From Candidatus Fraserbacteria bacterium (GTDB taxonomy: Bacteria; Bipolaricaulota; Bipolaricaulia; RBG-16-55-9; JANLFV01): a stretch of DNA of 64,000 nucleotides. Shown here in pieces: positions 14,946 to 54,960 of the stretch (position 1 is the first letter of the stretch; each line of letters begins with the position of its first letter). Position numbers and translations under genes: made by a program. The DNA lies in assembly GCA_037446135.1 (NCBI GenBank), contig JBBIJD010000001.1:27156-91155 (forward strand), written 5' to 3'. The notes beneath the pieces are model-generated. The model saw only the letters and a list, made by a program, of their open reading frames with translations. It had not been told where the DNA came from and made no database searches.

Positions 14946-15503
14946 ATGGAGATCAATCTGCCGAACCAGCTTACCCTGCTCCGGATCGCCATCATCCCCA
15001 TCTTGATGGTCTTCATCCTCATTCCTCCGGCCTGGGGGAAGATCGTGGCGATCTTCATCTTCGCCATCGCGGCCCTCTCCGATGCCGTCGACGGCTACAT
15101 CGCCCGGAACTGGCGCCAGGTGACGGACTTCGGGAAGTTCGCCGACCCCATCGCGGACAAGCTCTTGATCGCCTCCGCCTTAATCTGCTTCCTCCAGCTC
15201 GGGGAGTTCGGGAGCTGGGGGGCGGCGATCGTCATGACGATCCTCGCCCGGGAGTTCCTCGTCACCGGGTTGAGGATCTTGGCCGTCTCCCAAGACTTAG
15301 TGATCCGGGCCTCCACCTTGGGGAAGCTCAAGACCCTCGCCCAGATCGGGCTGGTCTTCGTCATTTTAGGGAAGAGCTACTTCGACTGGGGCGAGGCCGG
15401 AGAGATCGCAAAAGCGCTGTTTATCGGGCTGGCGCTTTTCTTGGCCCTCGTCTCTGGGGCCGACTATTTCTATCGCAGCCGGAGGCTCTTCCGTCGGCTC
15501 TAG
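14946..15503 (+). CDS. pgsA: CDP-diacylglycerol--glycerol-3-phosphate 3-phosphatidyltransferase
   Basis: Start at MEINLPNQLTLLRIAI. CDP-alcohol phosphotransferase motif DAVDGYIARNW...G...DPIADK. The N-terminal extension in the ORF track is low-complexity and antisense to the asparaginase gene. Confidence 0.9.
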   Translation: MEINLPNQLTLLRIAIIPILMVFILIPPAWGKIVAIFIFAIAALSDAVDGYIARNWRQVTDFGKFADPIADKLLIASALICFLQLGEFGSWGAAIVMTILAREFLVTGLRILAVSQDLVIRASTLGKLKTLAQIGLVFVILGKSYFDWGEAGEIAKALFIGLALFLALVSGADYFYRSRRLFRRL

Positions 15504-18280
15504 CCCCGGACGGAAATGGTCCTAGTCGCTGAGCTGGTATAGCCATCGTTATCGGTGACAGTCAGTGTCACGGGGTAGTCCCCGGCCTTGGGGAAGACCC
15601 ACTTGACGACCTTCCCCTCGGCGTCGGTGGCCTTATCTCCGGTGAAGTCCCATTCATACCTCACGATGTAGCCATCGGGATCGAATGAGGGCGAGCCGTC
15701 GAAGGTCACCTCCTCTCCGGCCTTCGGCTCCGCTGGGGCATAGGTGAAGTCCGCAAAGGGTGGCTGGAAGGTGACGACGATCGGGCGGGGCCGCTCGGCC
15801 GCCCCGAACTCCACTCGGAGGACCTCCCCAGGCTGGAGGAAAAGCTCGAGCCTCGTCGGGGTCGTCGGCTCATAGCGGGCCGGGAGGGTCGCAGGATCGA
15901 GGGAGAGGGAATACCTCCCGGGCAAGAGGGCGGTGAAGACGAACTCGCCCTGCGAGTCAGTGTAGGTGTCCACCAACTCGGCATCGCTCAGGATCAGTCT
16001 TACCCTCGGAAGGCCGGGCTCGCCTTCCTCTCGCCGGCCGTCCCGATTGAGGTCCTTGAAGACCACTCCCAAGATCGCCGCGGCCCTCGCTAGAGGGATG
16101 TCGAGCTTGAGGACCTCTCCCGCCTCCAGTTCGAGCTCGATCGGGAGGGCCACGGCCGGGGCCAGCTCAGCCGGGACCCGGCGGATCGTGAGGAGATACC
16201 TTCCGGGCCAGAGCGGCGGGAAGCGGTAGAACCCGGTCTTCTCCCCGTCGGAGCGGACTGTCACTTCACCGATCTGGAGGAAGACTCCGCTCACACCCGG
16301 CTCGCCGGGATCACGGGCCGAATTGCCGTCCTCATCGATGAAGATGTAGCCCTCGACCCGGGCCTTAGTGAGGATGAACGGGAGGGGGAGGTTGAACCTC
16401 AGGAGGCCTTCCAGGGCCACTCCTAGCTCCGCGGCCCCACTTACTATCGGGAGCGAGGCCCTCGTCTCGATCGCCCCTTCCCAGGCCTGGGACTCGACCG
16501 CCAGCCAGAGGGCGAGCTCGAGTCCCTCCTCGCTCCAGGCCCCGCGCAAGGCCGCGGCCAGGGCCCCCACCCGCAAGGTGAGCCCCGTCTCCAAGCCGAA
16601 GGAGGTGTCAGTGACCATCCCAGAGATGAGGTCATCGGTGAGAGCCTCGCTGAGCCGGAGGGAGAGGAGGGCCCCTCCCCCCGGCCTCAGGCTGAGCAGT
16701 TGCTCATACTGGGAGTATTGATAATCCGTCCCGGTGACGCGATCGCTCTCCCTGGTAGTGCTGGCAGTGAAAGCCAGTGTCGCCTGGCCGATGGGCTGGC
16801 TGAGGCTGGAATAGGCCGTCCTTTCCACCCGATTGACCTCGGGGGAGAGGCCCTCGCTGAACTGCTCCTCGAATTCGGCCCGGAGGCGGAGCGTGGGGAG
16901 CTCCCGCCCGAATGTATGGTAGCCGCTGAAGGAGCTGCGGATGGTGGTGATCCCCGAGACCGTCGGCCTCTGACTCAGGTTCTCCTCGCTTAAGCCAAGT
17001 GAGAGGGTGAGCAAAGGGAGGCTCGGGGAAGAGGTCCGGTAGGCCAGCTCACCGCTGACCCGATCCCCGAGGGTCGGGCCGCGGAGGGCCAGACCGAGCC
17101 GGAGGAGCGAGTCGCCGAAGTAGAACCCCAGGTGGCTGCTGAGAGCCCCGTCAATCCCCTCGGCTGTGCCACTTGCCTCCGCGGTGAGGGTGAGATCCAG
17201 GGCCCCGGCCTGGGCGATGGTGAGCCGGAGGTCATGCCGCTCCGGCGGGCCGGGATAATCCAGAAGATCGAGCTCGAGCCGCTTCAGTCCTGCCTCCGGA
17301 AGGCCGAGGTAGTTGAGCCGCAAGCTGTCGGCGGCCCGCTCGAGGAAGAAGGAGTCCCTAGCGGTGCCCCAGCCGAACAGGAGCCCCGGCTCGAGCCCCG
17401 CGAAGAGGTCGGCGAGATGGAGTTCGAGCCGGAGGGAGCTCTCTTTGCTGATCCGCCCACCGGCGAAGAGGTCGAGTGAGAGGGCCCGCTCTTCAGTGAG
17501 CAGGGGGCTCTCGAGCCGGAACTCGAGCGTCGCCGGTAGCTCGGCGTAGAGTGCCCCGCCGACCGCTTGGGGCGGTGGCGGGAGGAGGCTGATCCAGGCC
17601 GTGGCCTCGGCCTTCACCTCCGGCTTAGTGAGTGAGCTGGCCTTGAGTGTGACCCTGAGCCTCCCTATCGTGGCGGTCGGGAGGACCGTGGCGAGGACCC
17701 CGGCCCTCCGGGCCTCCCCGGGGAGGAGGTCGAGCTGGCCCTCCTCCAGCTCGGCGACGATCTCCGGTGAGCTGGTGACCTCCAGCTTGAAGGAGTCGGG
17801 GAGATTCCCGCGGTTGAGGACCACAAACTCCAGTCGGACCCGCGTGCCGGGATCGGCCTGGACCTCCGGCGGAGGGAAGACCTCGACCGCTGCTTGAGGG
17901 AGGACGATGATGATCGCAGTCGCAGAGGCAGTGATCGAGGGACTGCTCTCGGCTGTGGCCTTAAGCTGGAGGAGGTTCTCGCCCGCCTCGGCCTGAGCGG
18001 TCACGAAGACGGTGATGAAGAGTGCTTGCTCCTCATCGGTTTCCAGCTCGACCGCCGTGGGCGGGGAGACGGGCTCAAGCCCAGGAGAGGGGGAAAGCTC
18101 GAGGAGGAAGCGGTCCGCCGCGCCGCGGTTCCGGATGGAGAAGACATGGGTGACGAATTCCCCTGGTAGGGCCTGCTTCGGCGGGGAGACAGCTTCGAGC
18201 TCCACCTGGGCGAACGCGGCCGCCTGATAGAGCAGGAATAGTGATAAGATGAGGATCAGCCGGCGCATCGCGGGTCGCAC
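15500..18280 (-). CDS. Large secreted/cell-surface multi-domain protein: DUF11/CARDB-like N-terminal repeats, central beta-rich region, two Cna-B/SdrD-B-type Ig-like domains and C-terminal PKD domain
   Basis: 926 aa. Signal peptide MRRLILILSLFLLYQAAAFAQ. C-terminal PKD signature (VTFDGSPSFDPDGYIVRYEWDFGD...YPVTLTVTDNDG). Two carboxypeptidase-regulatory/SdrD-B-like repeats (YIFIDEDGNSARDPGEPGVSGV...; VFKDLNRDGRREEGEPGLPRVRL...). Middle ~350 aa has alternating hydrophobic periodicity compatible with a beta-barrel or beta-sandwich array. Confidence 0.75.
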   Translation of the reverse strand: MRPAMRRLILILSLFLLYQAAAFAQVELEAVSPPKQALPGEFVTHVFSIRNRGAADRFLLELSPSPGLEPVSPPTAVELETDEEQALFITVFVTAQAEAGENLLQLKATAESSPSITASATAIIIVLPQAAVEVFPPPEVQADPGTRVRLEFVVLNRGNLPDSFKLEVTSSPEIVAELEEGQLDLLPGEARRAGVLATVLPTATIGRLRVTLKASSLTKPEVKAEATAWISLLPPPPQAVGGALYAELPATLEFRLESPLLTEERALSLDLFAGGRISKESSLRLELHLADLFAGLEPGLLFGWGTARDSFFLERAADSLRLNYLGLPEAGLKRLELDLLDYPGPPERHDLRLTIAQAGALDLTLTAEASGTAEGIDGALSSHLGFYFGDSLLRLGLALRGPTLGDRVSGELAYRTSSPSLPLLTLSLGLSEENLSQRPTVSGITTIRSSFSGYHTFGRELPTLRLRAEFEEQFSEGLSPEVNRVERTAYSSLSQPIGQATLAFTASTTRESDRVTGTDYQYSQYEQLLSLRPGGGALLSLRLSEALTDDLISGMVTDTSFGLETGLTLRVGALAAALRGAWSEEGLELALWLAVESQAWEGAIETRASLPIVSGAAELGVALEGLLRFNLPLPFILTKARVEGYIFIDEDGNSARDPGEPGVSGVFLQIGEVTVRSDGEKTGFYRFPPLWPGRYLLTIRRVPAELAPAVALPIELELEAGEVLKLDIPLARAAAILGVVFKDLNRDGRREEGEPGLPRVRLILSDAELVDTYTDSQGEFVFTALLPGRYSLSLDPATLPARYEPTTPTRLELFLQPGEVLRVEFGAAERPRPIVVTFQPPFADFTYAPAEPKAGEEVTFDGSPSFDPDGYIVRYEWDFTGDKATDAEGKVVKWVFPKAGDYPVTLTVTDNDGYTSSATRTISVRG

Positions 18281-18357: not shown

Positions 18358-19371
18358 CTAGCCCCGGGACAGGAGTCCCCGGAGGAGGGCCACATCCTCG
18401 CCGTCGGCATCCCCGTCGTTATCGAAATCGAAGGCCGGCCAATTGTTCTGGACCCCAGCGGTGGTGAGGTTCGCCTCCAGGAGGTCCGGGTCAGCGGCGG
18501 TAAAGGCCCCATCGCCGTCCACATCCTCGTAGAAGCCGTCCCCATCGAGGTCCTGTGGCGGATTCGCCGCTCCTCCGATCGGGATGAGCTTGAGCTCAGG
18601 GACATCGAAAATGAGCTGCCCCGCGGGGAGATAATCGGGACTCCCGAAGTCGAGGACCGCCAGGGCATAGTATCGGCCCGGTGCGGGGCGAGGTGAGGAG
18701 CCCCGAGCTCGGGCCTCCCGGACCGCCCCGGGGAGGATCGGGAACTGGGCCACCTCGATCCGCTCCACTAGTTCGCCCCGAGCATCTAGGACTTGGACCT
18801 CCCCGCTCACCCGGAGGTGGATATCCCCGGTGTTCTCGAAGCCGATGAGGAAAGTGAGCGGGTTGAGCCCGAGCCGCTGGACCCCGGTGATCCGGCCGGC
18901 TCTCGTGCCGGTCCAAGGTGGGGTCTCATAGACCTTGATCCCGAACCGGGGGACCACCATTACCGTCGTCCCGCCCCGCTCTTGCGGCCGGGGCCGCCCC
19001 TCGACCATGATCATCCCCCAATAGGTCCCCTGGACATCGGGCGGGACAGTGATGGTGAACCGGACCTCGCGGGCCTCATCGGGCTTAAGGGAGAAGCTCG
19101 TGGGGGTCACGGTGATCCAGGCGGTATTCGAGCGAGGGAGGCTCCCCGGCTCATAGAAGCGGTGATTCCCCTCGACATCCCGGTCCCAGTCGACGAGGTA
19201 GACCTTGATGTCGTCGGTGATCTGTTCATCGTTGTGGACGAGGAAGGAGAAGGTCCCGCTCCCACCGGCCGGGACCTGGAGGTCGAACTCGATCTGGGAG
19301 ACCTCCAGGGCTGAGGAGGTCAGGAGCACCGCCGCAAGGGTCAAGAGGAGAATAAAGCTCTTCCTCAGCAT
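18358..19371 (-). CDS. Secreted protein with an N-terminal Ig-like domain resembling pilus-chaperone (PapD-like)/DUF916-type domains and a C-terminal dockerin-like Ca-binding repeat pair
   Basis: 337 aa. Signal peptide MLRKSFILLLTLAAVLLTSSA. LEVSQIEFDLQVPAGGSGTFSFLVHNDEQITDDIKVYLVDW parallels the chaperone pattern (RIxY...KSVSLTVxN...PYLVQSW). The C-terminus has two dockerin-type repeats: DLDGDGFYEDVDGDG...DPDLLEANL and DFDNDGDADGEDVALLRGLL. Confidence 0.6.
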   Translation of the reverse strand: MLRKSFILLLTLAAVLLTSSALEVSQIEFDLQVPAGGSGTFSFLVHNDEQITDDIKVYLVDWDRDVEGNHRFYEPGSLPRSNTAWITVTPTSFSLKPDEAREVRFTITVPPDVQGTYWGMIMVEGRPRPQERGGTTVMVVPRFGIKVYETPPWTGTRAGRITGVQRLGLNPLTFLIGFENTGDIHLRVSGEVQVLDARGELVERIEVAQFPILPGAVREARARGSSPRPAPGRYYALAVLDFGSPDYLPAGQLIFDVPELKLIPIGGAANPPQDLDGDGFYEDVDGDGAFTAADPDLLEANLTTAGVQNNWPAFDFDNDGDADGEDVALLRGLLSRG

Positions 19372-19389
19372 CTTCTTAGCTCAGGGGCT

Positions 19390-19418
19390 GGGGAGGGCCT
19401 CTCCCTGCGGCCCTCCCC
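19390..19418 (-). other. Intercistronic stable hairpin (10-bp GC stem GGGGAGGGCC/GGCCCTCCCC) between small-subunit gene A and the downstream chaperone-like gene
   Basis: Perfect inverted repeat seen directly. No T-tract follows on the coding (minus) strand, so it is more likely an mRNA stability or attenuation element than a full terminator. Confidence 0.5.
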
Positions 19419-19436
19419 AGCATTCTACTCCAAGGC

Positions 19437-19958
19437 CTAGGCGCTCGTCAGGGTGTAGACGATCTGGAGGGTATAGCTCCCCGGTGGGTCCTCTTCCCAG
19501 GCGAGGAGGACCCTGAAATGGGTATTCACGAGGATATTATTCCCTCTATTCCCCGCGGCCACCTGGACTTCGTTGATGGTCATCCCGGTATAGTCGGGCT
19601 GGGTCGCGGTCACTCGCGGGTCGGTGGAGGAGGACTTCCACTCCAGATCTTCACAGGGCTTATTCGGGTCCGGCCAAGTCCCAGTGTAAGTCCAAGTCGG
19701 GGCTGTGGCCCAGACATTGACCTGCCAGTTGACATTGCTCCTGACTTTGAGCGTCTGGGCGGGAGAGATCTCCTTATAGCCCCTCTCGTAGTCGTCTGCC
19801 GTCAGGTCCCCGAAGTCGACGAGATTGGGGTCCACCGTCAAGCGGAGAGCCGCTAGCGCGGTCGCTTGAACAGTCGTATTTTGGCTTGTCTGGGCCAAGC
19901 CCGCAAGGCCGAGGAGCAGAACCAAACCTGCTGCCAGAAGCCATCTCAATCTTGCCAT
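19437..19958 (-). CDS. Small secreted beta-rich protein, paralog A of a three-member family (pilin/SCPU-like or WxL-like C-terminal strand)
   Basis: 173 aa. Signal peptide MARLRWLLAAGLVLLLGLAGLAQT. Thr/Ser/Asn-rich. C-terminus PGSYTLQIVYTLTSA matches paralogs B (PGDYSITLEYTATSL) and C (PGDYHVTLTYTITTD). Confidence 0.8.
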   Translation of the reverse strand: MARLRWLLAAGLVLLLGLAGLAQTSQNTTVQATALAALRLTVDPNLVDFGDLTADDYERGYKEISPAQTLKVRSNVNWQVNVWATAPTWTYTGTWPDPNKPCEDLEWKSSSTDPRVTATQPDYTGMTINEVQVAAGNRGNNILVNTHFRVLLAWEEDPPGSYTLQIVYTLTSA

Positions 19959-19984
19959 TCTAGCCTCCTAAATGTGAATCTTTG

Positions 19985-20060
19985 GTGGCTTCGGCAGCCT
20001 GGCAGTCCGTGGAGGACCCACGGCTTTGCGCCCCCATGTCGCCATGGGTTCGCCTTTTCG
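19985..20060 (-). promoter_or_regulatory. GEMM-like (c-di-GMP-I class) riboswitch motif in the 5' UTR of paralog A
   Basis: RNA sense: AAGGCGAACCC-[CCCAUG GCGA CAUGGG]-GGCGCAAAGCC-[CCGUGG guccu CCACGG]...GGCUGCCGAAGCC. Shows the GEMM hallmarks GGCAAACC and GGRCGCAAAGCY around a P1 hairpin with a GNRA tetraloop, then P2. The same architecture occurs twice upstream of paralog C with compensatory changes in the P1 stem. Confidence 0.7.
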
Positions 20061-20075
20061 GTCCACTTAAACAAT

Positions 20076-20110
20076 ATTATACAAAGGCTGAGCCGAAGGT
20101 CGTCTGTAAT
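20076..20110 (-). promoter_or_regulatory. Candidate promoter (-10 TATAAT on minus strand) driving the riboswitch-paralog A transcript
   Basis: Minus-strand TATAAT (plus 20076-20081 ATTATA) lies immediately upstream of the riboswitch. The -35 is weak. Confidence 0.4.
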
Positions 20111-20137: not shown

Positions 20138-20190
20138 TGACACCCATAAAATAAAGAGAGGCCCCGGGCTCGAGTCATGAGCCCGGGGCC
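20138..20190 (-). terminator. Rho-independent terminator after paralog B (perfect 10-bp GC stem plus T-tract on the minus strand)
   Basis: GGCCCCGGGC...GCCCGGGGCC stem at 20160-20190. On the minus strand it is followed by CTCTCTTTATTTTATGGG. Sits 20 nt after the stop of 20212..20754. Confidence 0.75.
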
Positions 20191-20211
20191 CCGAAATGAG
20201 CGACTAACCGG

Positions 20212-20754
20212 TTACAGAGAGGTTGCGGTGTATTCCAGGGTGATGCTGTAATCTCCGGGGATGTCCTGTTCGTCCGAGGTATACTTGTAGGCCATATGGA
20301 AGTAGGCCGCGCCCGGCTTCTCCCCGGTCCCGGCCTTCATCATCTGATTGAATCCCGGGAAGCTGACATAGCTCCCCTGGTAGCCGCTGACATTCCCCTC
20401 GACTTTGGCGACCTTCCAGGCGAAGTCAGCGAGGATGTCCCCTTCAAAGCCCGGAGGGGTGGTAGCCTCGACGGCCTGGACGGCCAGGACATAGCCGTTA
20501 TGGCAGTTGGTCCTGAGGGAGACGATGTTCCCTTCGGTGTCCTCTAGGATCTGATCCGGCCCGGTGATCGTCCCCAGGAAGACATCCTGGTGGACATTGA
20601 GGGTGATCCAACAGTTGGCATTCCAGTAGACCGTGGTCTTCCCGCCGTCCCCGGCCCCGAGGGAGATCGTCCCCCAGAGGGCCGCGATCGCTAATGCCGC
20701 GAGGGTCGCTACCTTCAGGGTCTTTCCTATTCTCTTCATCGGTGTTACCTCCAT
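20212..20754 (-). CDS. Small secreted beta-rich protein, paralog B
   Basis: 180 aa. Signal peptide (MKRIGKTLKVATLAALAIAALWG). C-terminal PGDYSITLEYTATSL. No riboswitch upstream; instead an 11-bp-periodic TGGAAr repeat array. Confidence 0.8.
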   Translation of the reverse strand: MEVTPMKRIGKTLKVATLAALAIAALWGTISLGAGDGGKTTVYWNANCWITLNVHQDVFLGTITGPDQILEDTEGNIVSLRTNCHNGYVLAVQAVEATTPPGFEGDILADFAWKVAKVEGNVSGYQGSYVSFPGFNQMMKAGTGEKPGAAYFHMAYKYTSDEQDIPGDYSITLEYTATSL

Positions 20755-20895: not shown

Positions 20896-22158
20896 TTAGG
20901 GCTTCTTAGCAGGGAGGGCCCTGGCCCCTCCGAGCCGCTTTGCCCGGTAGAGGGCCCGGTCGGCCTGCTCGATCAGCTCGTCCGGCGAGGCCCCGTCCTC
21001 GGGGAAGCCGGCCACTCCGGCGCTGAAGCTGGCCCTGAAGGGCTCGGATTGCTCAGGGGCTTGGAACCGCTGCTCATGGAACTCCCCTTGGAGCCTGGTC
21101 AGGGCCGCCACGGCCCGGGGCTTGATGGTCTCGGGGAGGATGAGGGCGAACTCATCCCCGCCGTAGCGGGCGGGTAGGTCGCTCTTCCGTCCCTTGGACT
21201 TGATGAGCTCGGCCAGGGCCTTCAGGACGGAGTCGCCCATCCGATGGCCATAGCGGTCGTTGATCGCCTTGAACCGGTCGAGGTCGAGGAGGGCCAGGGA
21301 GAAGACCCTTCCATACCTTCTGCTCCGCTCGAGGGTGCAGCGGAGCTTCTCCTGGAAGGCCCGGTGGTTGTAGAGCCCGGTCAGGCCATCGAGGTCCGCC
21401 AGCTCGGTGAGCACCCGGTTCCGCTCGAGCCGGGCGGCGATCCGGGCGATCAGCTCCTCAGGGTAGAACGGCTTAGTGATGTAGTCGTCCGCCCCGGCCT
21501 CCAGGCCCCGGACCTTGGTCGCCACATCGCCCCTCCCGGTGAGGAAGAAGATCGGGAGCTTCTGGAACTCCACCTCCCGGCGGAGGGAGGCGCAGAGCTC
21601 CAGTCCGGTCAGCTTCGGCATCTCGATGTCCAGGAGCAAGAGGTCCGGCTTGAACTCCCTCAGGGTTGAGAGCGCCTCCGTCGGGTCTTGCAAGGCCTTG
21701 GTGGCGAACCCCGCTTGGCGGAGATGCCCCCCGACGAGCTCCAAGAGGTGAGGATCATCATCGACGATCGCGATCCTCAAGCGGTCGCCTCCTCCCTTTG
21801 GCTCTTGCTCAAGCTCGAACTTGAGCCCAAGCGCCGCTTCGGCCCGCTGGAGCTCCTCCTCCAGCTCGCGAAGGAGGGCCCGGAGCCTTCCCAGTTCCGG
21901 GGCGGCCAGCGGCCTGTTCTGAAGCTGGAGGGCCTCTTCCATCTCCTGAGCCAGCTCGGAGAGCCGAGGGTAGCCGTAGGAGCCGCCGCTCCCCTTGAGC
22001 CGATGGGCCCGCTCCAAGAGGGCCGCCATGGGGGCTTCAGCCTGAGGATCGGCCTCGAGGTCATTGAGCAACTGTCCGAAGAGGTTGAGGGCCCCGCGGA
22101 CCTCCTCGAGGTAGAGCCTTCGCAAGCCCTCCAATCCTTCTTCCATAGGTTCCACCAT
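20896..22158 (-). CDS. Hpt-REC-GGDEF signalling protein (diguanylate cyclase with receiver and N-terminal histidine phosphotransfer domain)
   Basis: 420 aa. Hpt HxxKG motif (ERAHRLKGSGGSYG). REC (IAIVDDDP...LLLDIEMP...DDYITKPF). GGDEF with intact active site RYGGDEF and a putative I-site (RRYGRV...). Confidence 0.9.
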   Translation of the reverse strand: MVEPMEEGLEGLRRLYLEEVRGALNLFGQLLNDLEADPQAEAPMAALLERAHRLKGSGGSYGYPRLSELAQEMEEALQLQNRPLAAPELGRLRALLRELEEELQRAEAALGLKFELEQEPKGGGDRLRIAIVDDDPHLLELVGGHLRQAGFATKALQDPTEALSTLREFKPDLLLLDIEMPKLTGLELCASLRREVEFQKLPIFFLTGRGDVATKVRGLEAGADDYITKPFYPEELIARIAARLERNRVLTELADLDGLTGLYNHRAFQEKLRCTLERSRRYGRVFSLALLDLDRFKAINDRYGHRMGDSVLKALAELIKSKGRKSDLPARYGGDEFALILPETIKPRAVAALTRLQGEFHEQRFQAPEQSEPFRASFSAGVAGFPEDGASPDELIEQADRALYRAKRLGGARALPAKKP

Positions 22159-22227: not shown

Positions 22228-22905
22228 CTACCCCGCCAACTTATACCCGAACCCGCGGACGGTGAGGATCAGTTCGGGGTTCTGCGGGTCCCGCTCGATC
22301 CGCTTGCGGAGGAGGTAAATGTATTTTTGCACATCGCCGGGGCGGGCGAAGCTGCTCCCCGGCCAGAGATGGTCGATGATCTCCCGATCGGAGAAGACCC
22401 TCCCCCGCTCTGAAGCTAAGAGGAGCAGGAGCTCATACTCCTTGGGGGAGAGGCTCACCACCTCTCCTCGGACCTGGACGGTCTTGCTCTTATCGTCGAT
22501 GGTGAGCGGCCCGACCTCAATGAGCGCCTCTTTCGGGGCCGCCCCGGCCCGCCGGAGGACCGCCTCGATCCGGAGGGCCACCTCCATGAGGTCGAACGGC
22601 TTCCTGATATAGTCGTCGGCCCCGAGGGTGAACCCCTGGATCGTATCTATCGGCGAGTCCCGGGCGGTGAGCATCAGCACTGGGGTGGAGCTGCCTTCCC
22701 GGATCCGCCGGAGCACCTCCCAGCCATCCATCCCCGGGAGCATCACATCGAGGAGGACCAGGTCCGGCCGCTCCTTAGCGAAGGCCTCCAGGGCCTTTGG
22801 GCCGTCCTCGGCGGTGAGGACCTCATACCCGCGGGAGCTGAGGAAGGCTCGGAGGAGCCTCAAGATATCAGGGTCGTCATCGACGAGGAGGATCTTCTTA
22901 GCCAT
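22228..22905 (-). CDS. OmpR-family response regulator (REC + winged-helix)
   Basis: 225 aa. KILLVDDDP...LVLLDVMLPGMDGW...DDYIRKPF, plus trans_reg_C (LSPKEYELLLLLASERGRVFSDREIIDHLW...TVRGFGYKLA). About 60% identity by eye to the second RR at 39014. Confidence 0.95.
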   Translation of the reverse strand: MAKKILLVDDDPDILRLLRAFLSSRGYEVLTAEDGPKALEAFAKERPDLVLLDVMLPGMDGWEVLRRIREGSSTPVLMLTARDSPIDTIQGFTLGADDYIRKPFDLMEVALRIEAVLRRAGAAPKEALIEVGPLTIDDKSKTVQVRGEVVSLSPKEYELLLLLASERGRVFSDREIIDHLWPGSSFARPGDVQKYIYLLRKRIERDPQNPELILTVRGFGYKLAG

Positions 22906-25075
22906 CCTGATCAGTCAGTCCTCCGTCCAGCCCGAGCTTGAGCCAGCTCTTGGAGAGCGGGAGCCTGACGGTGAACTTCGTCCCCGCATTCGGCTTGCTC
23001 TCGACCCTGATCTCCCCGCCGTGACGGTCGATCGTGGCCTTGACGATCGCCAGCCCCAGGCCGGTCCCCGTGGCCTCCCGGACATAGGGGTTGGTGGAGC
23101 GGAAGAACCTGGTGAAGAGCCGGCCGAGCTCCTCCGCGTCCATCCCGATCCCGGTATCCGTGACCTCGACGATCGCCTCCCCGGCCACGGTGTCGGCCCG
23201 GGCCCGGAGGCTCACCTTCCCCTCCTTGGTGTATTTGATGGCATTGGAGAGGAGGTTGGCGAAGGCCCGAGCGAGGTAGTCGGCATCACCTTTGACCTGG
23301 AGCCCTTCCTCCAGCTCGACCTCCAGGGCCAATCCCTTCTCCCGGGCATTGACGGCGAAAGTGGCGGCCACATCCCTCAAGATTTCGTCGAGCGCGAGGT
23401 CCCTTAGCTCGATCTTCCGCTCCCCCGACTCGAGCCGCTCGATGTCCAGGAGGTCGTTGACCAGTTTGGTCAGGCGGTCGGCGTTCCGGGAGATAACCTG
23501 GAGGAACTCCTCCTGGGCCGGATTGAGGGGGCCGGTCTCCCCGGCCAAGAGGAGGTCGGCATACCCTTTGATCGAGGTGAGCGGGGTCCGAAGCTCATGG
23601 GAGACGGTGGCGAGGAACTCGGCCTTCAGTTGCTCCAGTCGCTTCTGAGCGGTGATATCCCGCATCATCCCTTGATAGCCCACCAGCCGCCCCGCGCTGT
23701 CCTTGATGGCCACACTGATCTCGTGGACCGTCCTCATTGAGCCGTCCTTGTGCTTATACGCTAGTTCCATGTCTACATAGCCGTCCCGCGCCAGTCGCCG
23801 GTGGAACTCCTCCCGCTGGGCCGGGTCGGCATAATTCTCGCAGAGGTCCATCCGGATCAGCTCCTCTTCCCTGTAGCCGAGAAGCTTCCTCACCGCCGGG
23901 TTGACATCGACGAGTCGGCCTTGAGAATCGCAGACATAGATCACATCGGCGCTATTCTCGAAGAGGTTGCGGTAGCGCTCCCCTGAGCGGCGGAGTTCCT
24001 CCTCAGCTTGCTCGCGTCTAGCAAGCATCTCATTGATCGAGCGAGCCAGGCTCGCCAGCTCATCGCCCCCTTTGGAGGGGAGGCGGGCCGAGAGGTCGCC
24101 GCTCGCCGTGACCCGGCGGACAGCCCGCTCGAGTCGGGCCAGCTTAGCCAGGACACCCCTCTCGAGCAGGAGGAGGGCGGTGGCCGTGAAGACCAGGCCG
24201 ATGGTAGAGAGGGCCAACATGAAGTAGTTCAAGCTCGCCAGCCCTTGGCTGTAGATGGTCCGCGGGAGGTCCACCCTCAAGATGAGGGCCGGCTGGCCGT
24301 AGATATCTCGGAGCAGGGCATAGCCGGCGACCCGCTCCCGGTCGAGCCGCTGGACAGGGAGCGTCGTCGCCCCTGTCCCCGCTAAGAGGGCCGTGCGGGC
24401 CGCGGCGAAGGCCGGGTCTTCTAGGGCTAGTCCTGGCTCATCAACTCGCCGGAATGCTAGTGAGAGGTCCGTCAACTCCGCCAGTTGAGCGACCTTAGCA
24501 GCATCGAGGTAGCGGCCCATGATGAGCGAGCCCCGGCTCGGGCCGGTCTTCTCGCTGGTGAGGATCGGCCTGGCGGCCAAGAGGAGTGGCCCCTCCGCTA
24601 GAAGGAGGAGCCCAGTCAGCCCCTCTTTGGGAGGCTCCTCGCGGGGCCGGAGGAGCGGGCTCTCAGGGGTGAGACTGTTCAAGAGGCCCTCTGGGACTGG
24701 CACCTCCCTTCTCTCCTGGAGGTCGAAGGCCTTGGCGAAGACGATCCTCCCCGAGGAGTGGACGAAGACCATCAAGTTCAAGCCGAGCTCGCTGAAGGTC
24801 TGATCGACGAGGTTGGAGCGGATATACTCCGGATTGGCGTCCTCGATGAAGGCATAGGTATCGTCCCAACCGGCCCAATCGCCGACGAGGGCGCTCAGCT
24901 TGGCCTGGTCATCGGCTAGCGCGTTCAGGGTTCGCTCGACCTCCCTTCGGGTGGCCTGCTCTTCCAGGGCCAGGAAGCCCCCGAGGAAGAGCGACCGGAG
25001 GACGAGATACATGATGGCTACTGAGCAGAGGAGCACTGAGCCGATAGTGATCAGCGTCTTCTTCCGTAGGGTCAT
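22898..25075 (-). CDS. Sensor histidine kinase with extracytoplasmic sensor domain, HAMP, PAS, HisKA and HATPase_c
   Basis: 725 aa. N-terminal TM segment, ~270-aa periplasmic region, a second TM, HAMP-like linker, PAS (DVIYVCDSQGRLVDVNPAV), H-box (ATVSHELRTPLTSI), and N/G boxes (LSNAIKYT, DTGIGM, GTGLGLAIV). Confidence 0.9.
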   Translation of the reverse strand: MTLRKKTLITIGSVLLCSVAIMYLVLRSLFLGGFLALEEQATRREVERTLNALADDQAKLSALVGDWAGWDDTYAFIEDANPEYIRSNLVDQTFSELGLNLMVFVHSSGRIVFAKAFDLQERREVPVPEGLLNSLTPESPLLRPREEPPKEGLTGLLLLAEGPLLLAARPILTSEKTGPSRGSLIMGRYLDAAKVAQLAELTDLSLAFRRVDEPGLALEDPAFAAARTALLAGTGATTLPVQRLDRERVAGYALLRDIYGQPALILRVDLPRTIYSQGLASLNYFMLALSTIGLVFTATALLLLERGVLAKLARLERAVRRVTASGDLSARLPSKGGDELASLARSINEMLARREQAEEELRRSGERYRNLFENSADVIYVCDSQGRLVDVNPAVRKLLGYREEELIRMDLCENYADPAQREEFHRRLARDGYVDMELAYKHKDGSMRTVHEISVAIKDSAGRLVGYQGMMRDITAQKRLEQLKAEFLATVSHELRTPLTSIKGYADLLLAGETGPLNPAQEEFLQVISRNADRLTKLVNDLLDIERLESGERKIELRDLALDEILRDVAATFAVNAREKGLALEVELEEGLQVKGDADYLARAFANLLSNAIKYTKEGKVSLRARADTVAGEAIVEVTDTGIGMDAEELGRLFTRFFRSTNPYVREATGTGLGLAIVKATIDRHGGEIRVESKPNAGTKFTVRLPLSKSWLKLGLDGGLTDQDG

Positions 25076-25187: not shown

Positions 25188-25709
25188 TCAATCGGTGGTG
25201 ATGGTGTAGGTCAGGGTCACATGGTAGTCTCCCGGCCTATGATGCTCGCGGTCGAAGAGGATGAGGTAGTCCACCTCCACCTTTTGGCGCCCGCTCGGGC
25301 CATGAGCGATGACCTGATCGGAGTTGCTGACCGGGCGATAGGACTCGCTCCCCACGCGGAGCTGGAAGTCGCTGAGCGGCTTGGTGTAGCGGCCGTCATA
25401 GCTCCTTCCGAGGTCGGGCTCGGCGGCCCGGACCGCCAGCCTCCAGTGGACATTGCTGGCGGCGATGAGGGTGAGCGCCCTAGGGATCTCGCGGTAGCCC
25501 CGCTCCAGGTCCGCTTCGCTCGGCTGAGGGAGCACAAATGTCGTCGTGACGGCCTGGTCGGTCTGGCCCTCGAGTGAGAGGCGGGCGAAAGGGAGGACAG
25601 TCCAAGAGATCGTCGTCCTAGCGGAGTCACCTGTCCCTAGAGCCTGGGCACTGAGGAATAACGAGAGACCGAGAAGAAGCAAGCCGGAGATGACCGCTCT
25701 TCTTGCCAT
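25188..25709 (-). CDS. Small secreted beta-rich protein, paralog C
   Basis: 173 aa. Signal peptide MARRAVISGLLLLGLSLFLSAQA. C-terminal PGDYHVTLTYTITTD. Preceded by tandem GEMM-like riboswitch motifs. Confidence 0.8.
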   Translation of the reverse strand: MARRAVISGLLLLGLSLFLSAQALGTGDSARTTISWTVLPFARLSLEGQTDQAVTTTFVLPQPSEADLERGYREIPRALTLIAASNVHWRLAVRAAEPDLGRSYDGRYTKPLSDFQLRVGSESYRPVSNSDQVIAHGPSGRQKVEVDYLILFDREHHRPGDYHVTLTYTITTD

Positions 25710-25710
25710 C

Positions 25711-25790
25711 CTTCGGCAGCCCGGCGATCCCCGAGGGACCCGTAGCTTTGCGCCCCCACCTTGCGATGGGTTTGCCCTTATCGGGATGCG
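25711..25790 (-). promoter_or_regulatory. GEMM-like (c-di-GMP-I class) riboswitch motif, gene-proximal copy of a tandem pair
   Basis: RNA sense: AAGGGCAAACCC-[AUC GCAA GGU]-GGGGGCGCAAAGCUACGGG...GGGCUGCCGAAGG-AUG. The P1 stem CCCAUC/GGUGGG differs from the other copies (CCCGCC/GGCGGG and CCCAUG/CAUGGG) by compensatory changes, and all three loops are GNRA-type (GCAA, GAGA, GCGA). Confidence 0.7.
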
Positions 25791-25801
25791 TCCCTTCCTC
25801 G

Positions 25802-25905
25802 CCCTTCGGCAGCCCGGCTGCCCTTCACCTCCTTCCCCAATCAGCCAGTGTTAGGGCCCGTGGCTTTGCGCCCCCGCCTCTCGGCGGGTTTGCCCTTATC
25901 GGAGC
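25802..25905 (-). promoter_or_regulatory. GEMM-like (c-di-GMP-I class) riboswitch motif, distal copy of the tandem pair
   Basis: RNA sense: CCGAUAAGGGCAAACCC-[GCC GAGA GGC]-GGGGGCGCAAAGCCACGGGCCC...GGGCAGCCGGGCUGCCGAAGGG. Lies immediately downstream of the promoter at 25916-25945. Confidence 0.7.
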
Positions 25906-25915
25906 TCAGCGAAGG

Positions 25916-25945
25916 TATTATACACCGAGTGAGCGGGCTTGACAA
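25916..25945 (-). promoter_or_regulatory. Near-consensus sigma70 promoter (minus strand TTGTCA-17 nt-TATAAT) for the tandem riboswitch-paralog C transcript
   Basis: Minus-strand reading: ggcTTGTCAagcccgctcactcggtgTATAATacc. Overlaps the 3' end of the HD-GYP gene. Confidence 0.6.
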
Positions 25946-27471
25946 GCCCCTTCGGGCGGGGAAGGTCCTTTCGGGCTCAGATCCAGATTGTATCCCCTCT
26001 CGAAGAGCCGGAGGCAGGCCTCGCCAGCTTGGGGGTCGTAGAGCCGCCCCTTGTGCTTGGCGATCTCTCCCAAGGCCTCCTCGATGGCATGGGCCGGGCG
26101 GTAGGGCCGGTGAGAGGCCACCGCCTCCACCACATCGGCCACCGCTAGAATTCGGGCCTCGAGCATGATCTCTTCCCCCTTGAGCCCCCGGGGGTAGCCC
26201 GAGCCGTCGAGCCGCTCGTGGTGCTGGAGGACGATCTCAGCCACCGGCCAGGGGAAGTCGATCTGCCTCAAGACCTCATAGCCGGCCTGGGGATGGACCC
26301 GCACCAGCCCCAACTCGGCCGGATTGAGCCTCCCCGGCTTGCTCAGGATCTCCGCGGGGATATAGATCTTCCCGATGTCGTGGACCTGAGCGGCCATCCT
26401 GAGCCCGGCGATCCGGTCCTGAGGGAGGCCCATCTCCTGGGCGATCGCGCAGGCCAGCTCCGCCACCCGCCGCTGGTGCCCCGCGGTGTAGGGGTCCCGG
26501 ACCTCGACGGTGGTGGCGAGGACATCGACCATCTGCTCCAGGAGCCGCTCCAGCCGCTCATGACTCTCCCGGAGGGCCTCAAACAGCCGGAGGTTCTCCA
26601 AGGCCACAGCGGTGGCATTGGCCAAAGCCTCGAGGAGCTGGCAGTCCTCGGAGGTGAAGGCATTCAACTCCTGGCTCTCGGCGTTGAGGGCCCCGAGGAC
26701 CCGCTCCCCCGCCTTCAAGGGGACGCAGAGCTCAGAGCGGTTGGCGAACCGCCCCCCGACGAACCGTGGGTCCTTGGTCACATCCGGGAGGAGGATCATC
26801 TCCCCAGAGCGGGCCACGGCGGGGATGATCCCCCGCTCGCTAGCGAGGGGGAACTCCTCCGGGCCGGGGGGCCGTCCAAGAGTGTGGGCGACACAGATGA
26901 GCCGCTCGGCCTTCTCGTCCACTAGGAAGAGGCCGCAGTCCTCGAGCCCGAGGACCTCCCGGGCCGCCTCCACCGCCGCTTGGGCGATCTCCTCCTCGCT
27001 CCGGGAGAGGATCAACCTTCGGCCCAGGGCGTAGATCCCGGCCAGGCCCCGCTCGAGCCGCTTCCGCTCGGTGATGTCCCTCAGGATCGTCTGGAGGCCG
27101 ACGACCTTCCCCGCCTGCCTGATCGGGTTGCTCCGGTAGTCCGCGATCCTCGGCCCCTTGGGGGTGGTGAGCTCGATCTCCCCTTGGATCGGCTCCCCTC
27201 GGCTTATCCGGGCGAGCTCCTCGAGCAGCCGGGGATGGTAGCGCTCGGGGACGAACTCGAGCATATTCTTCCCGACCAGGTCCTCCTTGCGGAAGCCATA
27301 TTCTGCAGCGGCCCGGTTCACGGCCGTCACATTCCCTTCAAGGTCGAAGGTGACAATGACATCCCTAGCGTCCTCGAAGAGCTCGCGATAGGCCCCTTCC
27401 GCCCGCTCAAGCTCAGCCACCCGCAGCCGGAGCTGCTCGAGCTCTAACCCCTCTCGTGCCTCCGGTCTCAA
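25918..27471 (-). CDS. PAS-GAF-HD-GYP protein (c-di-GMP phosphodiesterase, HD-GYP class)
   Basis: 517 aa. HD motif (VHDIGKI) and HHERLDGSGYP (the GYP signature). N-terminal PAS and GAF regions. Confidence 0.9.
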   Translation of the reverse strand: MRPEAREGLELEQLRLRVAELERAEGAYRELFEDARDVIVTFDLEGNVTAVNRAAAEYGFRKEDLVGKNMLEFVPERYHPRLLEELARISRGEPIQGEIELTTPKGPRIADYRSNPIRQAGKVVGLQTILRDITERKRLERGLAGIYALGRRLILSRSEEEIAQAAVEAAREVLGLEDCGLFLVDEKAERLICVAHTLGRPPGPEEFPLASERGIIPAVARSGEMILLPDVTKDPRFVGGRFANRSELCVPLKAGERVLGALNAESQELNAFTSEDCQLLEALANATAVALENLRLFEALRESHERLERLLEQMVDVLATTVEVRDPYTAGHQRRVAELACAIAQEMGLPQDRIAGLRMAAQVHDIGKIYIPAEILSKPGRLNPAELGLVRVHPQAGYEVLRQIDFPWPVAEIVLQHHERLDGSGYPRGLKGEEIMLEARILAVADVVEAVASHRPYRPAHAIEEALGEIAKHKGRLYDPQAGEACLRLFERGYNLDLSPKGPSPPEGACQARSLGV

Positions 27472-54399: not shown

Positions 54400-54960
54400 T
54401 TCCGGCTTCTTGGGGCTTTTCCACCGCCGCCACCACAGCTTCCTCAGGTGGGACCATCCGGGTTATCTCGCCTGTGAAGCTTATTAGTCTGGGGTAACCG
54501 TCCTATCTAATGGCTTGCACATAGCCACACGCGGAGCAAGCGAAGCCGCTGAAGGCTGGCTAGAGCCACAAGACCTCTCTTCTCCTTGACCTCGTCCGCT
54601 ACGGTTGCAAACGGCAAGGCCGTTACATATTCCGGCTGCATAATCATCGCCGTCCACTTCCATAGTCCCTTGTTGTTCATACTGAACTGCCGCGGATCAT
54701 CTGTCCACCACAGCCCTTCCACCAAAGGCATTACCGCGTAATCTACGCCAACGATCTTCTTGACCCTGAATTTGAGGGCGTAGGACAGGGGAAAGAGCGC
54801 TTCCATTGCCTGTTGATACTCCAGAGAAACATTTGGGTCGAAGGTGCCATCAACCATCAGAAAGTTCATCGGTGGAACATCTACCACGGAGACTCCCCTG
54901 GCCGATGGATTGTAGAGATGCTTGAGATCAACTCTGGCCGTTTATGCTCCTCCTTAGCGA
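54400..54960 (-). pseudogene. GyrI-like small-molecule-binding domain gene, degraded: no start codon and an in-frame TAG within the conserved GLCxxxxHIGPY region
   Basis: Track ORF 54507..54887 (VDVPPMNFLMVDGTFDPNVSLEYQQAMEALFPLSYALKF...EGLWWTDD...WKWTAMIMQPEYVT) matches only the middle of ~205-aa GyrI-like proteins. The upstream in-frame sequence (...TARVDLKHLYNPSARGVS) continues the homology but hits a TAA with no start. Downstream, ...RVWLCASH*IGRLPQ shows a nonsense codon. The segment is lower in GC than its surroundings. Confidence 0.55.

What the first reader, a model, noticed from the sequence alone, without database searches (positions are those of the whole stretch)
19985..20060. GEMM-like (c-di-GMP-I class) riboswitch motif in the 5' UTR of a small secreted-protein gene
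In the gene-sense (minus) strand, the leader of 19437..19958 reads ...AAGGCGAACCC[CCCAUG-GCGA-CAUGGG]GGCGCAAAGCCGUGGGUCCUCCACGG...GGCUGCCGAAGCC. It has the two hallmark GEMM blocks: GGCAAACC before a P1 hairpin capped by a GNRA tetraloop, and GGRCGCAAAGCY leading into P2. GEMM elements classically control pilus, adhesin and matrix genes, which fits the downstream secreted beta-rich protein and the GGDEF and HD-GYP genes nearby. All local copies carry G where the V. cholerae Vc2 aptamer has A (GGGCGCAAAGC versus GGACGCAAAGC), so ligand specificity (c-di-GMP versus another cyclic dinucleotide) is open.
Basis: partly seen in the sequence, partly recalled or inferred. Interest (0 to 1): 0.85.

Follow-up and report, generated by a model that had tools for sequence, protein, structure and literature searches.

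The report
c-di-GMP riboswitch before a pilin gene
This is a genuine but ordinary class-I c-di-GMP riboswitch in an uncultured Bipolaricaulota bacterium; it most likely turns on translation of a pilus-subunit operon when the biofilm signal c-di-GMP rises.

Summary
Window 19989-20063 (minus strand) matches the Rfam c-di-GMP-I clan above threshold (RF03167, 61.0 bits against a gathering score of 59, E 6e-12). Two further copies sit in tandem at 25711-25903. Orthologous leaders in related Bipolaricaulota assemblies match classic RF01051 at 52-54 bits (gathering score 35). Covariation across 12 copies supports the fold.

Although Rfam labels it "GGC variant", all copies keep the classic ligand triad G20/A47/C92.

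There is no terminator between aptamer and ORF. The aptamer's 3' strand can pair instead with codons 5-10, enclosing the ribosome-binding site. Related leaders use the same strand as an explicit anti-Shine-Dalgarno arm. I infer a translational ON switch, untested.

It is a new member of a known kind. The pilin link is the most interesting by-product.

The parts
20158..20192 (-). Intrinsic terminator of the upstream gene (180-aa pilin paralogue 20212-20754). It isolates the riboswitch transcription unit.
   Evidence: 14-bp GC-rich stem followed by TCTTTATTTT.
20076..20083 (-). Putative extended -10 promoter element TGTATAAT. The predicted transcription start is about 20067-20069, just 5' of P1.
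   Evidence: Read from the sequence. TATAAT is conserved in L002, L003, L005 and L006. The same TGTATAAT with a TTGTCA -35 precedes the tandem copy. The promoter scan did not list it because no -35 passes its rule, so this is an inference.
19985..20066 (-). c-di-GMP-I (GEMM-I) aptamer. The Rfam core is 19989-20063; the outer P1 is GUGG 20066-20063 / CCAC 19988-19985 plus C20060-G19992 and G20059-C19993. P1a is 20048-20033 with GNRA loop GCGA 20042-20039. P1b is 20025-19996. Vc2-equivalent positions: G20 = 20054, G43 = 20031, C44 = 20030, A47 = 20027, bulged G83-equivalent = 20003, C92 = 19994.
   Evidence: cmscan 61.0 bits, E 6e-12. Orthologues reach RF01051 52.5-54.1 bits. 98.6% of cells pair, 5 pairs show compensatory change, and slid controls give 31-49%. 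Key nucleotides are invariant in 12 of 12 copies.
19985..19998 (-). Switching segment GCUGCCGAAGCCAC: the 3' strands of P1b-base and P1, including C92. It is shared between the aptamer fold and the alternative helix.
   Evidence: MFE folds of the leader; duplex -28.0 kcal/mol.
19964..19969 (-). Shine-Dalgarno AGGAGG, 5 nt upstream of the ATG.
   Evidence: Sequence; conserved in the orthologous leaders.
19930..19943 (-). Anti-aptamer partner UGGCUUCUGGCAGC (codons 6-10, W-L-L-A-A of the signal peptide). It pairs with 19998-19985 (13 bp with a 1-nt bulge) and so closes a hairpin around the SD and AUG.
   Evidence: It is as good as or better than 99.1% of random 50-nt windows (p 0.009; orthologues 0.0005 and 0.0045).
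19437..19958 (-). Regulated gene 1: a 173-aa secreted protein, a predicted donor-strand-exchange pilin with the TLP-1 fibril protomer fold.
19388..19420 (-). Strong intergenic hairpin between the pilin and chaperone genes, with no U-tract. It may set the pilin:chaperone ratio (inference).
   Evidence: -38.7 kcal/mol, z -3.6. Conserved in L002 and L003, absent in L007.
18358..19371 (-). Regulated gene 2: a 337-aa two-domain PapD-like chaperone candidate with a dockerin-like C-terminus.
15500..18280 (-). Regulated gene 3 (probably the same operon): a 926-aa secreted protein with SdrD_B, PKD and Ig-like domains, a candidate adhesin or anchor.
   Evidence: Pfam and NCBIfam. The pilin-chaperone-PKD protein trio is syntenic in L002-L005 and recurs in rearranged form in L007.
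25711..25903 (-). Tandem pair of the same aptamer type (25804-25903 and 25711-25785) in front of pilin paralogue 25188-25709. The ATG at 25709 abuts the second aptamer, and its AUG pairs with CAU in P1.
   Evidence: Conserved in L002-L005.
20896..22158 (-). Hpt-REC-GGDEF diguanylate cyclase (RYGGDEF), a local source of the ligand.
   Evidence: Pfam GGDEF 1e-44; sequence.
25918..27471 (-). PAS-GAF-HD-GYP phosphodiesterase (HHERLDGSGYP), a local sink for the ligand.
   Evidence: Pfam HD_5 3.5e-42; sequence.
22228..25075 (-). CHASE4-HAMP-PAS histidine kinase (22898-25075) and OmpR-type response regulator (22228-22905), lying between the pilin paralogues.
   Evidence: Pfam.

Best explanation
Window 19985-20066 (minus strand) is a class-I c-di-GMP riboswitch aptamer (GEMM-I) with the canonical ligand pocket. 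It sits at the very 5' end of an mRNA that starts at an extended -10 promoter and encodes a pilus operon: a TLP-1-fold donor-strand-exchange pilin, a PapD-like chaperone and a large PKD/SdrD-type surface protein. It most likely works at the level of translation and as an ON switch. Without ligand, the aptamer's 3' strand (GCUGCCGAAGCCAC, 19998-19985) pairs with codons 6-10 (19943-19930). This locks the Shine-Dalgarno sequence and the AUG inside a stable hairpin. When c-di-GMP binds the nascent aptamer, that strand is held in P1/P1b, the downstream helix cannot form, and the ribosome-binding site is accessible. High c-di-GMP, made by the adjacent GGDEF protein and removed by the adjacent HD-GYP protein, would therefore induce pilus production. 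Shown here: the aptamer's identity, fold and pocket nucleotides, conservation of the RNA-gene linkage, absence of a terminator, and existence of the competing helix. Inferred: the ligand, the direction of the switch, co-transcription of the three genes, and the pilus function.
Against: No binding or expression experiment exists. The direction of the switch rests on thermodynamic folding alone. The predicted gain in RBS accessibility when the aptamer is closed is modest (mean P(unpaired) 0.41 to 0.60 for the window, and about no change for L002 and L007). The anti-aptamer pairing is not significant in L007 (p 0.24). The partner lies in coding sequence, so its conservation among close orthologues is uninformative, and the two substitutions seen (A to G, giving G-C and G-U) are synonymous, not compensatory. 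The alternative fold is about 20 kcal/mol more stable than the aptamer fold, so the switch would have to be kinetically (co-transcriptionally) controlled. The sister tandem unit has its AUG inside P1, which suggests the opposite polarity there. The RF01051 score for this exact copy is hidden by the clan filter.
Confidence: 0.6

Rival explanations
1. Same aptamer and ligand, but an OFF switch or a different output. Ligand-stabilised P1 and the compact aptamer lying close to the RBS would reduce initiation. Alternatively, the switch would act through Rho-dependent termination or mRNA stability rather than ribosome access.
For: In the tandem sister unit and in L059_500 and L014_1510 the AUG is part of P1 (CAUCC/GGAUG; compensatory CAUUUC/GAAUG), which favours sequestration on ligand binding. 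Closing the aptamer gives only small changes in RBS accessibility. In L007 a linker anti-SD (CCUUCC) still pairs with GGAGG when the aptamer is closed.
Against: In the finding's own leader the SD lies 20 nt beyond P1 and is not complementary to any aptamer strand that the ligand would stabilise. Three related single-aptamer pilin leaders have the ON-type layout, with the P1 3' strand acting as anti-SD. In biology generally, high c-di-GMP induces adhesins and pili (general knowledge; PMC6366702 listed).
Confidence: 0.25
2. A specificity variant: the aptamer senses a ligand other than c-di-GMP. This could follow from its Rfam assignment to the c-di-GMP-I-GGC variant class, or from the G at position 43.
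For: The best-scoring Rfam model is RF03167, the 'GGC' variant. Position 43 is an upper-case (conserved) A in both Rfam consensus sequences and is G in all copies here. It lies next to C44 of the interhelical pair.
Against: The one systematic difference between the RF03167 and RF01051 consensus sequences is G against A at position 47, and all copies here have A47. Close orthologues are assigned to RF01051. G20 excludes the known c-AMP-GMP signature, which is A20. G43 aptamers are abundant, 93% of them carry G20, and they precede a typical GEMM regulon that includes a GGDEF gene. The local genes make and degrade c-di-GMP.
Confidence: 0.07
3. A decayed or non-functional aptamer relic whose score only just passes threshold (61.0 against 59).
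For: It has the lowest score of the three local copies. P1 has a non-standard register, with a 5-nt rather than 6-nt J1/1a and one G-G flagged pair. Some orthologues have a U-U mismatch in P1b.
Against: It is conserved at the same place in at least 8 assemblies and metagenomes, down to 50% protein identity. All pocket nucleotides are invariant and there are compensatory changes. The mismatch is resolved by a one-nucleotide shift of the bulge. A promoter lies directly upstream.
Confidence: 0.03

Closest known systems
Vibrio cholerae Vc2 and Vc1 c-di-GMP-I riboswitches (Rfam RF01051, GEMM-I)
   Same: The three-helix architecture is the same, with a GNRA loop on P1a. G20, A47, C92 and the C44 - bulged-G interhelical pair are all present. 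It sits in a 5' UTR. Vc1 is an ON switch for the adhesin GbpA (PMC4744006), the logic proposed here.
   Different: G instead of A at position 43, and G at position 23 in this copy. P1b is short (7-nt loop). J1/1a has 5 nt. The proposed expression platform uses early coding sequence as the competitor strand. The host is an uncultured Bipolaricaulota bacterium.
c-di-GMP-I-GGC variant (Rfam RF03167; defined in Weinberg et al. 2017 PNAS, not held in the library, so the meaning of the name is from my own knowledge plus comparison of the two Rfam consensus sequences)
   Same: It is the best-scoring covariance model for the three window copies (61-76 bits). It shares the GC-rich stems, the short P1b and the modelled P1.
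   Different: The consensus G at position 47, which distinguishes the variant model, is A in every copy here. These sequences are therefore classic 'GAC' aptamers that a narrow model happens to fit well.
Tandem c-di-GMP-I riboswitches, for example the Bacillus thuringiensis triplet before a collagen-adhesion protein gene (347 doublets surveyed in PMC9481103)
   Same: The neighbouring copy at 25711-25903 is a doublet before a surface-fibre gene. Such arrays are thought to sharpen the response.
   Different: The finding itself is a singlet. The local doublet has no terminators. Its second P1 contains the AUG, and its first aptamer carries an SD-like insertion.
c-di-GMP-II riboswitch upstream of Clostridioides difficile pilA1 and other riboswitch-controlled adhesins (PMC6200980, PMC6366702)
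   Same: In both cases c-di-GMP acts through an RNA to induce a pilus or adhesin gene.
   Different: The aptamer class differs (II against I), the mechanism there is transcription antitermination, and the product there is a type IV pilin rather than a donor-strand-exchange pilin.
TLP-1a/b fibrils (PDB 9IKJ/9IKK; CryoSeek, PMC11494351) and chaperone-usher, TasA and archaeal bundling pili
   Different: There is no sequence-level match to any PDB chain. The protomer is shorter (173 against 237 residues). No usher was found. Fibre formation is not shown.

Membership tests
c-di-GMP-I riboswitch (GEMM-I, RF01051 / clan CL00126) | Covariance-model score at or above the curated gathering score | tested here: met
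   RF03167 (same clan) scores 61.0 against 59 for this copy. RF01051 scores 52.5-54.1 against 35 for orthologues that differ by a few bases. Three lower-scoring clan hits at gathering level were suppressed in the window. They are presumably RF01051, but the score was not displayed.
c-di-GMP-I riboswitch (GEMM-I, RF01051 / clan CL00126) | P1a hairpin capped by a GNRA tetraloop and P1b hairpin joined at a three-way junction, supported by covariation | tested here: met
   GCGA, GCAA and GAGA loops. 98.6% paired, 5 compensatory pairs, slid controls 31-49%.
c-di-GMP-I riboswitch (GEMM-I, RF01051 / clan CL00126) | Ligand-contact nucleotides G20, A47 and C92 (Vc2 numbering) | tested here: met
   G 20054, A 20027 and C 19994; invariant in 12 of 12 copies. 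Contacts as given in PMC4744006 and PMC5888326.
c-di-GMP-I riboswitch (GEMM-I, RF01051 / clan CL00126) | Universally conserved interhelical Watson-Crick pair (Vc2 C44-G83) | tested here: inconclusive
   Both nucleotides are present and invariant (C 20030; bulged G 20003). The tertiary pair itself cannot be tested from sequence.
c-di-GMP-I riboswitch (GEMM-I, RF01051 / clan CL00126) | Sense orientation in the 5' UTR of the regulated gene, with an expression platform | tested here: met
   The aptamer ends 30 nt before the ATG, a promoter-like element lies directly upstream, and a competing helix overlaps the aptamer's 3' strand.
c-di-GMP-I riboswitch (GEMM-I, RF01051 / clan CL00126) | Selective binding of c-di-GMP and ligand-dependent gene control | not testable with these tools
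   Needs in-line probing or ITC and reporter assays.
c-di-GMP-I-GGC variant (RF03167) | Covariance-model score at or above the gathering score | tested here: met
   61.0, 74.4 and 76.2 bits against 59.
c-di-GMP-I-GGC variant (RF03167) | G at the position equivalent to Vc2 A47 (model position 37; the only systematic difference from the RF01051 consensus) | tested here: not met
   Model ...ACGC-G-AAgCc against sequence ...GCGC-A-AAGCC in all three window copies and all relatives.
c-AMP-GMP riboswitch (GEMM-Ib) | A at position 20 in place of G | tested here: not met
   G in 12 of 12 copies. The role of this position in c-AMP-GMP selectivity is described in PMC9481103.
Chaperone-assisted donor-strand-exchange pilus (regulated operon) | Subunit with an incomplete Ig-like fold and an N-terminal donor strand | tested here: inconclusive
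   [not shown]
Chaperone-assisted donor-strand-exchange pilus (regulated operon) | Two-domain PapD-like periplasmic chaperone | tested here: met
   [not shown]
Chaperone-assisted donor-strand-exchange pilus (regulated operon) | Outer-membrane usher | tested here: not met
   None of the nine proteins scanned from this locus, including the three operon proteins, has an Usher-family Pfam hit. The 926-aa protein has PKD, SdrD_B and Ig-like domains only.

The most novel reading that the evidence does not exclude
The riboswitch marks a previously unrecognised, c-di-GMP-induced pilus system that is chaperone-assisted but lacks an usher. Its subunit belongs to the TLP-1 fibril class. These fibrils were seen by cryo-EM in pond water in 2024, and neither the producing organism, the genes, the assembly factors nor the function is known. 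If so, this locus gives TLP-1-type fibrils their first genetic and regulatory context: a biofilm or adhesion pilus, a PapD-like chaperone partner, and three riboswitch-gated paralogous subunits, in the uncultured phylum Bipolaricaulota.
Probability: 0.45. Interest if true: 0.55.

Novelty: new member of a known kind. Interest (0 to 1): 0.3.

Why it matters
The riboswitch itself adds little. c-di-GMP-I is one of the most abundant and best-studied riboswitch classes, and control of adhesins and pili by it is established. Three by-products have some value.

1. It shows that Rfam's RF03167 "GGC variant" model captures aptamers with the classic A47 pocket. Automated annotation of "variant" c-di-GMP riboswitches should therefore be checked at position 47.

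2. It shows that c-di-GMP signalling through riboswitches operates in Bipolaricaulota (formerly Acetothermia/OP1), a phylum known almost only from metagenomes, and it predicts a surface-attached lifestyle switch there.

3. It ties a large unannotated family of about 170-aa secreted proteins (about 1,300 clusters at 50% identity, no Pfam model) to the TLP-1 fibril fold, to a PapD-like chaperone and to c-di-GMP control. That makes the function of those orphan fibrils experimentally approachable.

Tried and rejected
1. GGC-variant membership. Rejected: the defining G47 is A in all copies.

2. c-AMP-GMP specificity. Rejected: G20 is invariant.

3. G43 as a rare, lineage-specific specificity change.

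4. Transcription-termination platform. Rejected: no terminator-like site between the aptamer and the ATG.

5. P1b loop CCUCC as an anti-SD pairing with GGAGG. Considered from the sequence and dropped: the loop is CUCUG or UUCAC in orthologues, so the complement is not conserved.

6. A universal riboswitch-pilin linkage. Not supported: a Gemmatimonadaceae homologue (35% identity, L013) has no GEMM hit upstream, and only 5-7 of 119 ORFs downstream of G43-type aptamers are pilin-family.

7. Sequence-level link of the pilin family to any solved structure. None found at E<=1.

8. Reading the paper that defined the variants (Weinberg et al. 2017 PNAS). Not held in the library.

9. An afdb50 fold search. 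The library was unavailable.

10. The search for related loci with the diverse 16-sequence alignment. It failed for lack of conserved stretches and was repeated with 4 sequences.

11. Analogous anti-aptamer pairing in the tandem leader. Not found (duplex p 0.77); that unit seems to work differently.

12. The SNORD75 hit at 54688-54730 (21 bits against 50, E 0.49) is chance.

Full report
OBSERVATION. A full Rfam scan of the 64-kb window gave three hits above gathering score, all to clan CL00126 (c-di-GMP-I and variants). They are 19989-20063 (61.0 bits, gathering score 59, E 6.1e-12), 25711-25785 (74.4 bits) and 25804-25903 (76.2 bits). A permissive scan (E<=1) added only a chance snoRNA match. 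The three copies share an invariant core.

WHICH FAMILY. The best-scoring model is RF03167, "c-di-GMP-I-GGC", not RF01051. Comparing the two Rfam consensus lines (RF03167, RF01051) shows one systematic difference...ACGC-G-AAgCc against ...ACGC-A-AAgCc. This is the position equivalent to Vc2 A47. Published work names G20, A47 and C92 as the ligand contacts of Vc2. It also describes a universally conserved interhelical pair that uses the C three nucleotides 5' of A47 (PMC4744006; PMC5888326). In every copy here (three in the window, nine in related loci) these positions read G20, A47 and C92.

The defining feature of the GGC variant is thus tested and not met. These are classic aptamers that a narrow GC-rich model happens to fit. 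Consistent with this, the orthologues of the finding's aptamer in L002-L006 and L010 differ by only a few bases and are assigned to RF01051 at 52.5-54.1 bits (gathering score 35). It is a real deviation from both consensus sequences but is not one of the three ligand-contact positions. Among 123 such aptamers, position 20 is G in 114 and the P1a loop is GNRA in 117. The genes downstream include sigma factors, Big-domain adhesins, flagellar and type IV pilin-like proteins, multihaem cytochromes and a GGDEF protein, which is a typical GEMM regulon. I therefore expect c-di-GMP as the ligand.

STRUCTURE. I tested a hand-built GEMM-I structure on an alignment of 12 distinct aptamers. It gave 98.6% standard pairs, five pairs with changes on both sides, and a covariation score of 0.283 against a shuffled mean of 0.171 (0 of 500 shuffles reached it). 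The same structure slid by 1-3 columns paired only 31-49%. The P1 of this copy is best drawn as GUGG/CCAC plus CG/CG around a small internal loop, with a 5-nt J1/1a. cmscan forces a slightly different register, which explains the lower score.

ORGANISM AND CONSERVATION. The regulated protein is 86-88% identical to proteins from Candidatus Bipolaricaulia/Acetothermia MAGs and 50% identical to others from Bipolaricaulota. The whole locus is syntenic in L002-L006. The order is HD-GYP, tandem aptamers, pilin paralogue, CHASE4 kinase, OmpR regulator, Hpt-REC-GGDEF, pilin paralogue, terminator, aptamer, pilin, chaperone, PKD protein. In the distant L007, L011 and L012 loci the aptamer still precedes the pilin-chaperone pair although the neighbourhood differs. 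A Gemmatimonadaceae homologue (35% identity) has no aptamer, so the linkage is not universal.

EXPRESSION PLATFORM. A terminator (20192-20158) ends the upstream gene, and a TGTATAAT element (20083-20076) lies about 10 nt before P1. The TATAAT is conserved in relatives. There is no terminator-like site between the aptamer and the ATG at 19958, and an AGGAGG sits 5 nt before the ATG.

The minimum-free-energy fold of the leader does not form the complete aptamer. Instead GCUGCCGAAGCCAC (19998-19985: the P1b-base 3' strand, C92 and the P1 3' strand) pairs with UGGCUUCUGGCAGC (19943-19930, codons 6-10). This encloses the SD and AUG in a long hairpin. That duplex (-28 kcal/mol) is matched by 0.9% of random windows of this GC-rich sequence. 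The figures are 0.05% and 0.45% for the L002 and L003 orthologues, 4% for the independent L011 leader, and 24% (not significant) for L007.

More persuasive are three further pilin leaders recovered from metagenomes (L059_1197, L059_2269, L014_2078). In these the P1 3' strand (CUCC or CACCCC) continues into a 10-14-bp anti-SD arm that pairs with the downstream GGAGG. P1 formation and SD sequestration are mutually exclusive there, which is the standard translational ON layout. I infer the same logic for the window's leader, with early coding sequence as the competitor.

There are caveats. Simple accessibility calculations give only a modest effect. The competing fold is about 20 kcal/mol more stable than the aptamer fold, so control would have to be kinetic. 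No compensatory change in the anti-aptamer helix was seen.

THE TANDEM COPY. The doublet at 25711-25903 is conserved and belongs to a well-known phenomenon: 347 c-di-GMP-I doublets are reported in PMC9481103. Its details are unusual. The ATG abuts the second aptamer, and the AUG pairs with CAU in the 5' strand of P1, with a compensatory CAUUUC/GAAUG version in L014. The first aptamer carries a conserved SD-like AAGGAGGUGA insertion in its P1b loop. I could not resolve its logic. It may have the opposite polarity to the single aptamer.

VERDICT. It is a new member, not a new variant. The ligand-specificity question it raised is answered in favour of c-di-GMP on sequence grounds. The mechanism (translational ON) is inferred with moderate confidence. 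The link to TLP-1-type pilins and a PapD-like chaperone in Bipolaricaulota is the part most worth following up.

Noticed in passing
window 25711-25903 (minus strand): Tandem c-di-GMP-I aptamers sit before pilin paralogue 25188-25709. The ATG (25709) abuts the second aptamer, and its AUG pairs with CAU in the P1 5' strand (CAUCC/GGAUG). The same design occurs with a compensatory change in L014:1510 and in L059:500. It suggests a polarity opposite to that of the single-aptamer leaders.
   Followed up: partly
window 25825-25834 (minus strand), inside the P1b loop of the first tandem aptamer: There is a conserved SD-like insertion AAGGAGGUGA (also in L002, L003 and L059:386) with no start codon at SD distance. 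Its role is unknown; it could be a ribosome standby site or a decoy.
   Followed up: no
[not shown]
   Followed up: partly
window 18358-19371 (minus strand): A two-domain PapD-like chaperone candidate carries a C-terminal dockerin-like (Ca-binding) module. Its best full-length structural match is the Enterococcus WxL-interacting protein. No usher gene is present in the operon.
   Followed up: partly
window 19388-19420 (minus strand): A strong GC hairpin without a U-tract lies between the pilin and chaperone genes (-38.7 kcal/mol, z -3.6). It is conserved in L002 and L003 and absent in L007. It may act as an mRNA-stability or attenuation element that sets subunit:chaperone stoichiometry.
   Followed up: partly
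L059:1-2355 (metagenome contig Ga0190286_1014887): Four G43-type c-di-GMP-I aptamers lie within 2.3 kb: a doublet plus two singlets. Two of the downstream ORFs are TLP-like pilin paralogues; the contig ends before the ORF after the last singlet. This is a denser version of the window's arrangement.
   Followed up: partly
Rfam models RF03167 and RF01051, on window 19989-20063, 25711-25785 and 25804-25903: The 'GGC variant' model outscores the parent model on aptamers that have the parental A47. Clan competition therefore labels classic aptamers as variants, which is a trap for automated annotation.
   Followed up: yes
L014-L133 (G43-type aptamers from metagenomes): 12 of 105 downstream ORFs are sigma-70-family proteins (regions 2, 3 and 4), the most frequent Pfam association in this sample. 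Four are doubled-CXXCH multihaem cytochromes.
   Followed up: no
L003:15205-15972 and the syntenic genes in L002, L004, L005: A Lactamase_B protein with a hit to the Anti-Pycsar Apyc1 family lies a few genes beyond the pilus operon in the relatives. It was not checked in the window itself.
   Followed up: no
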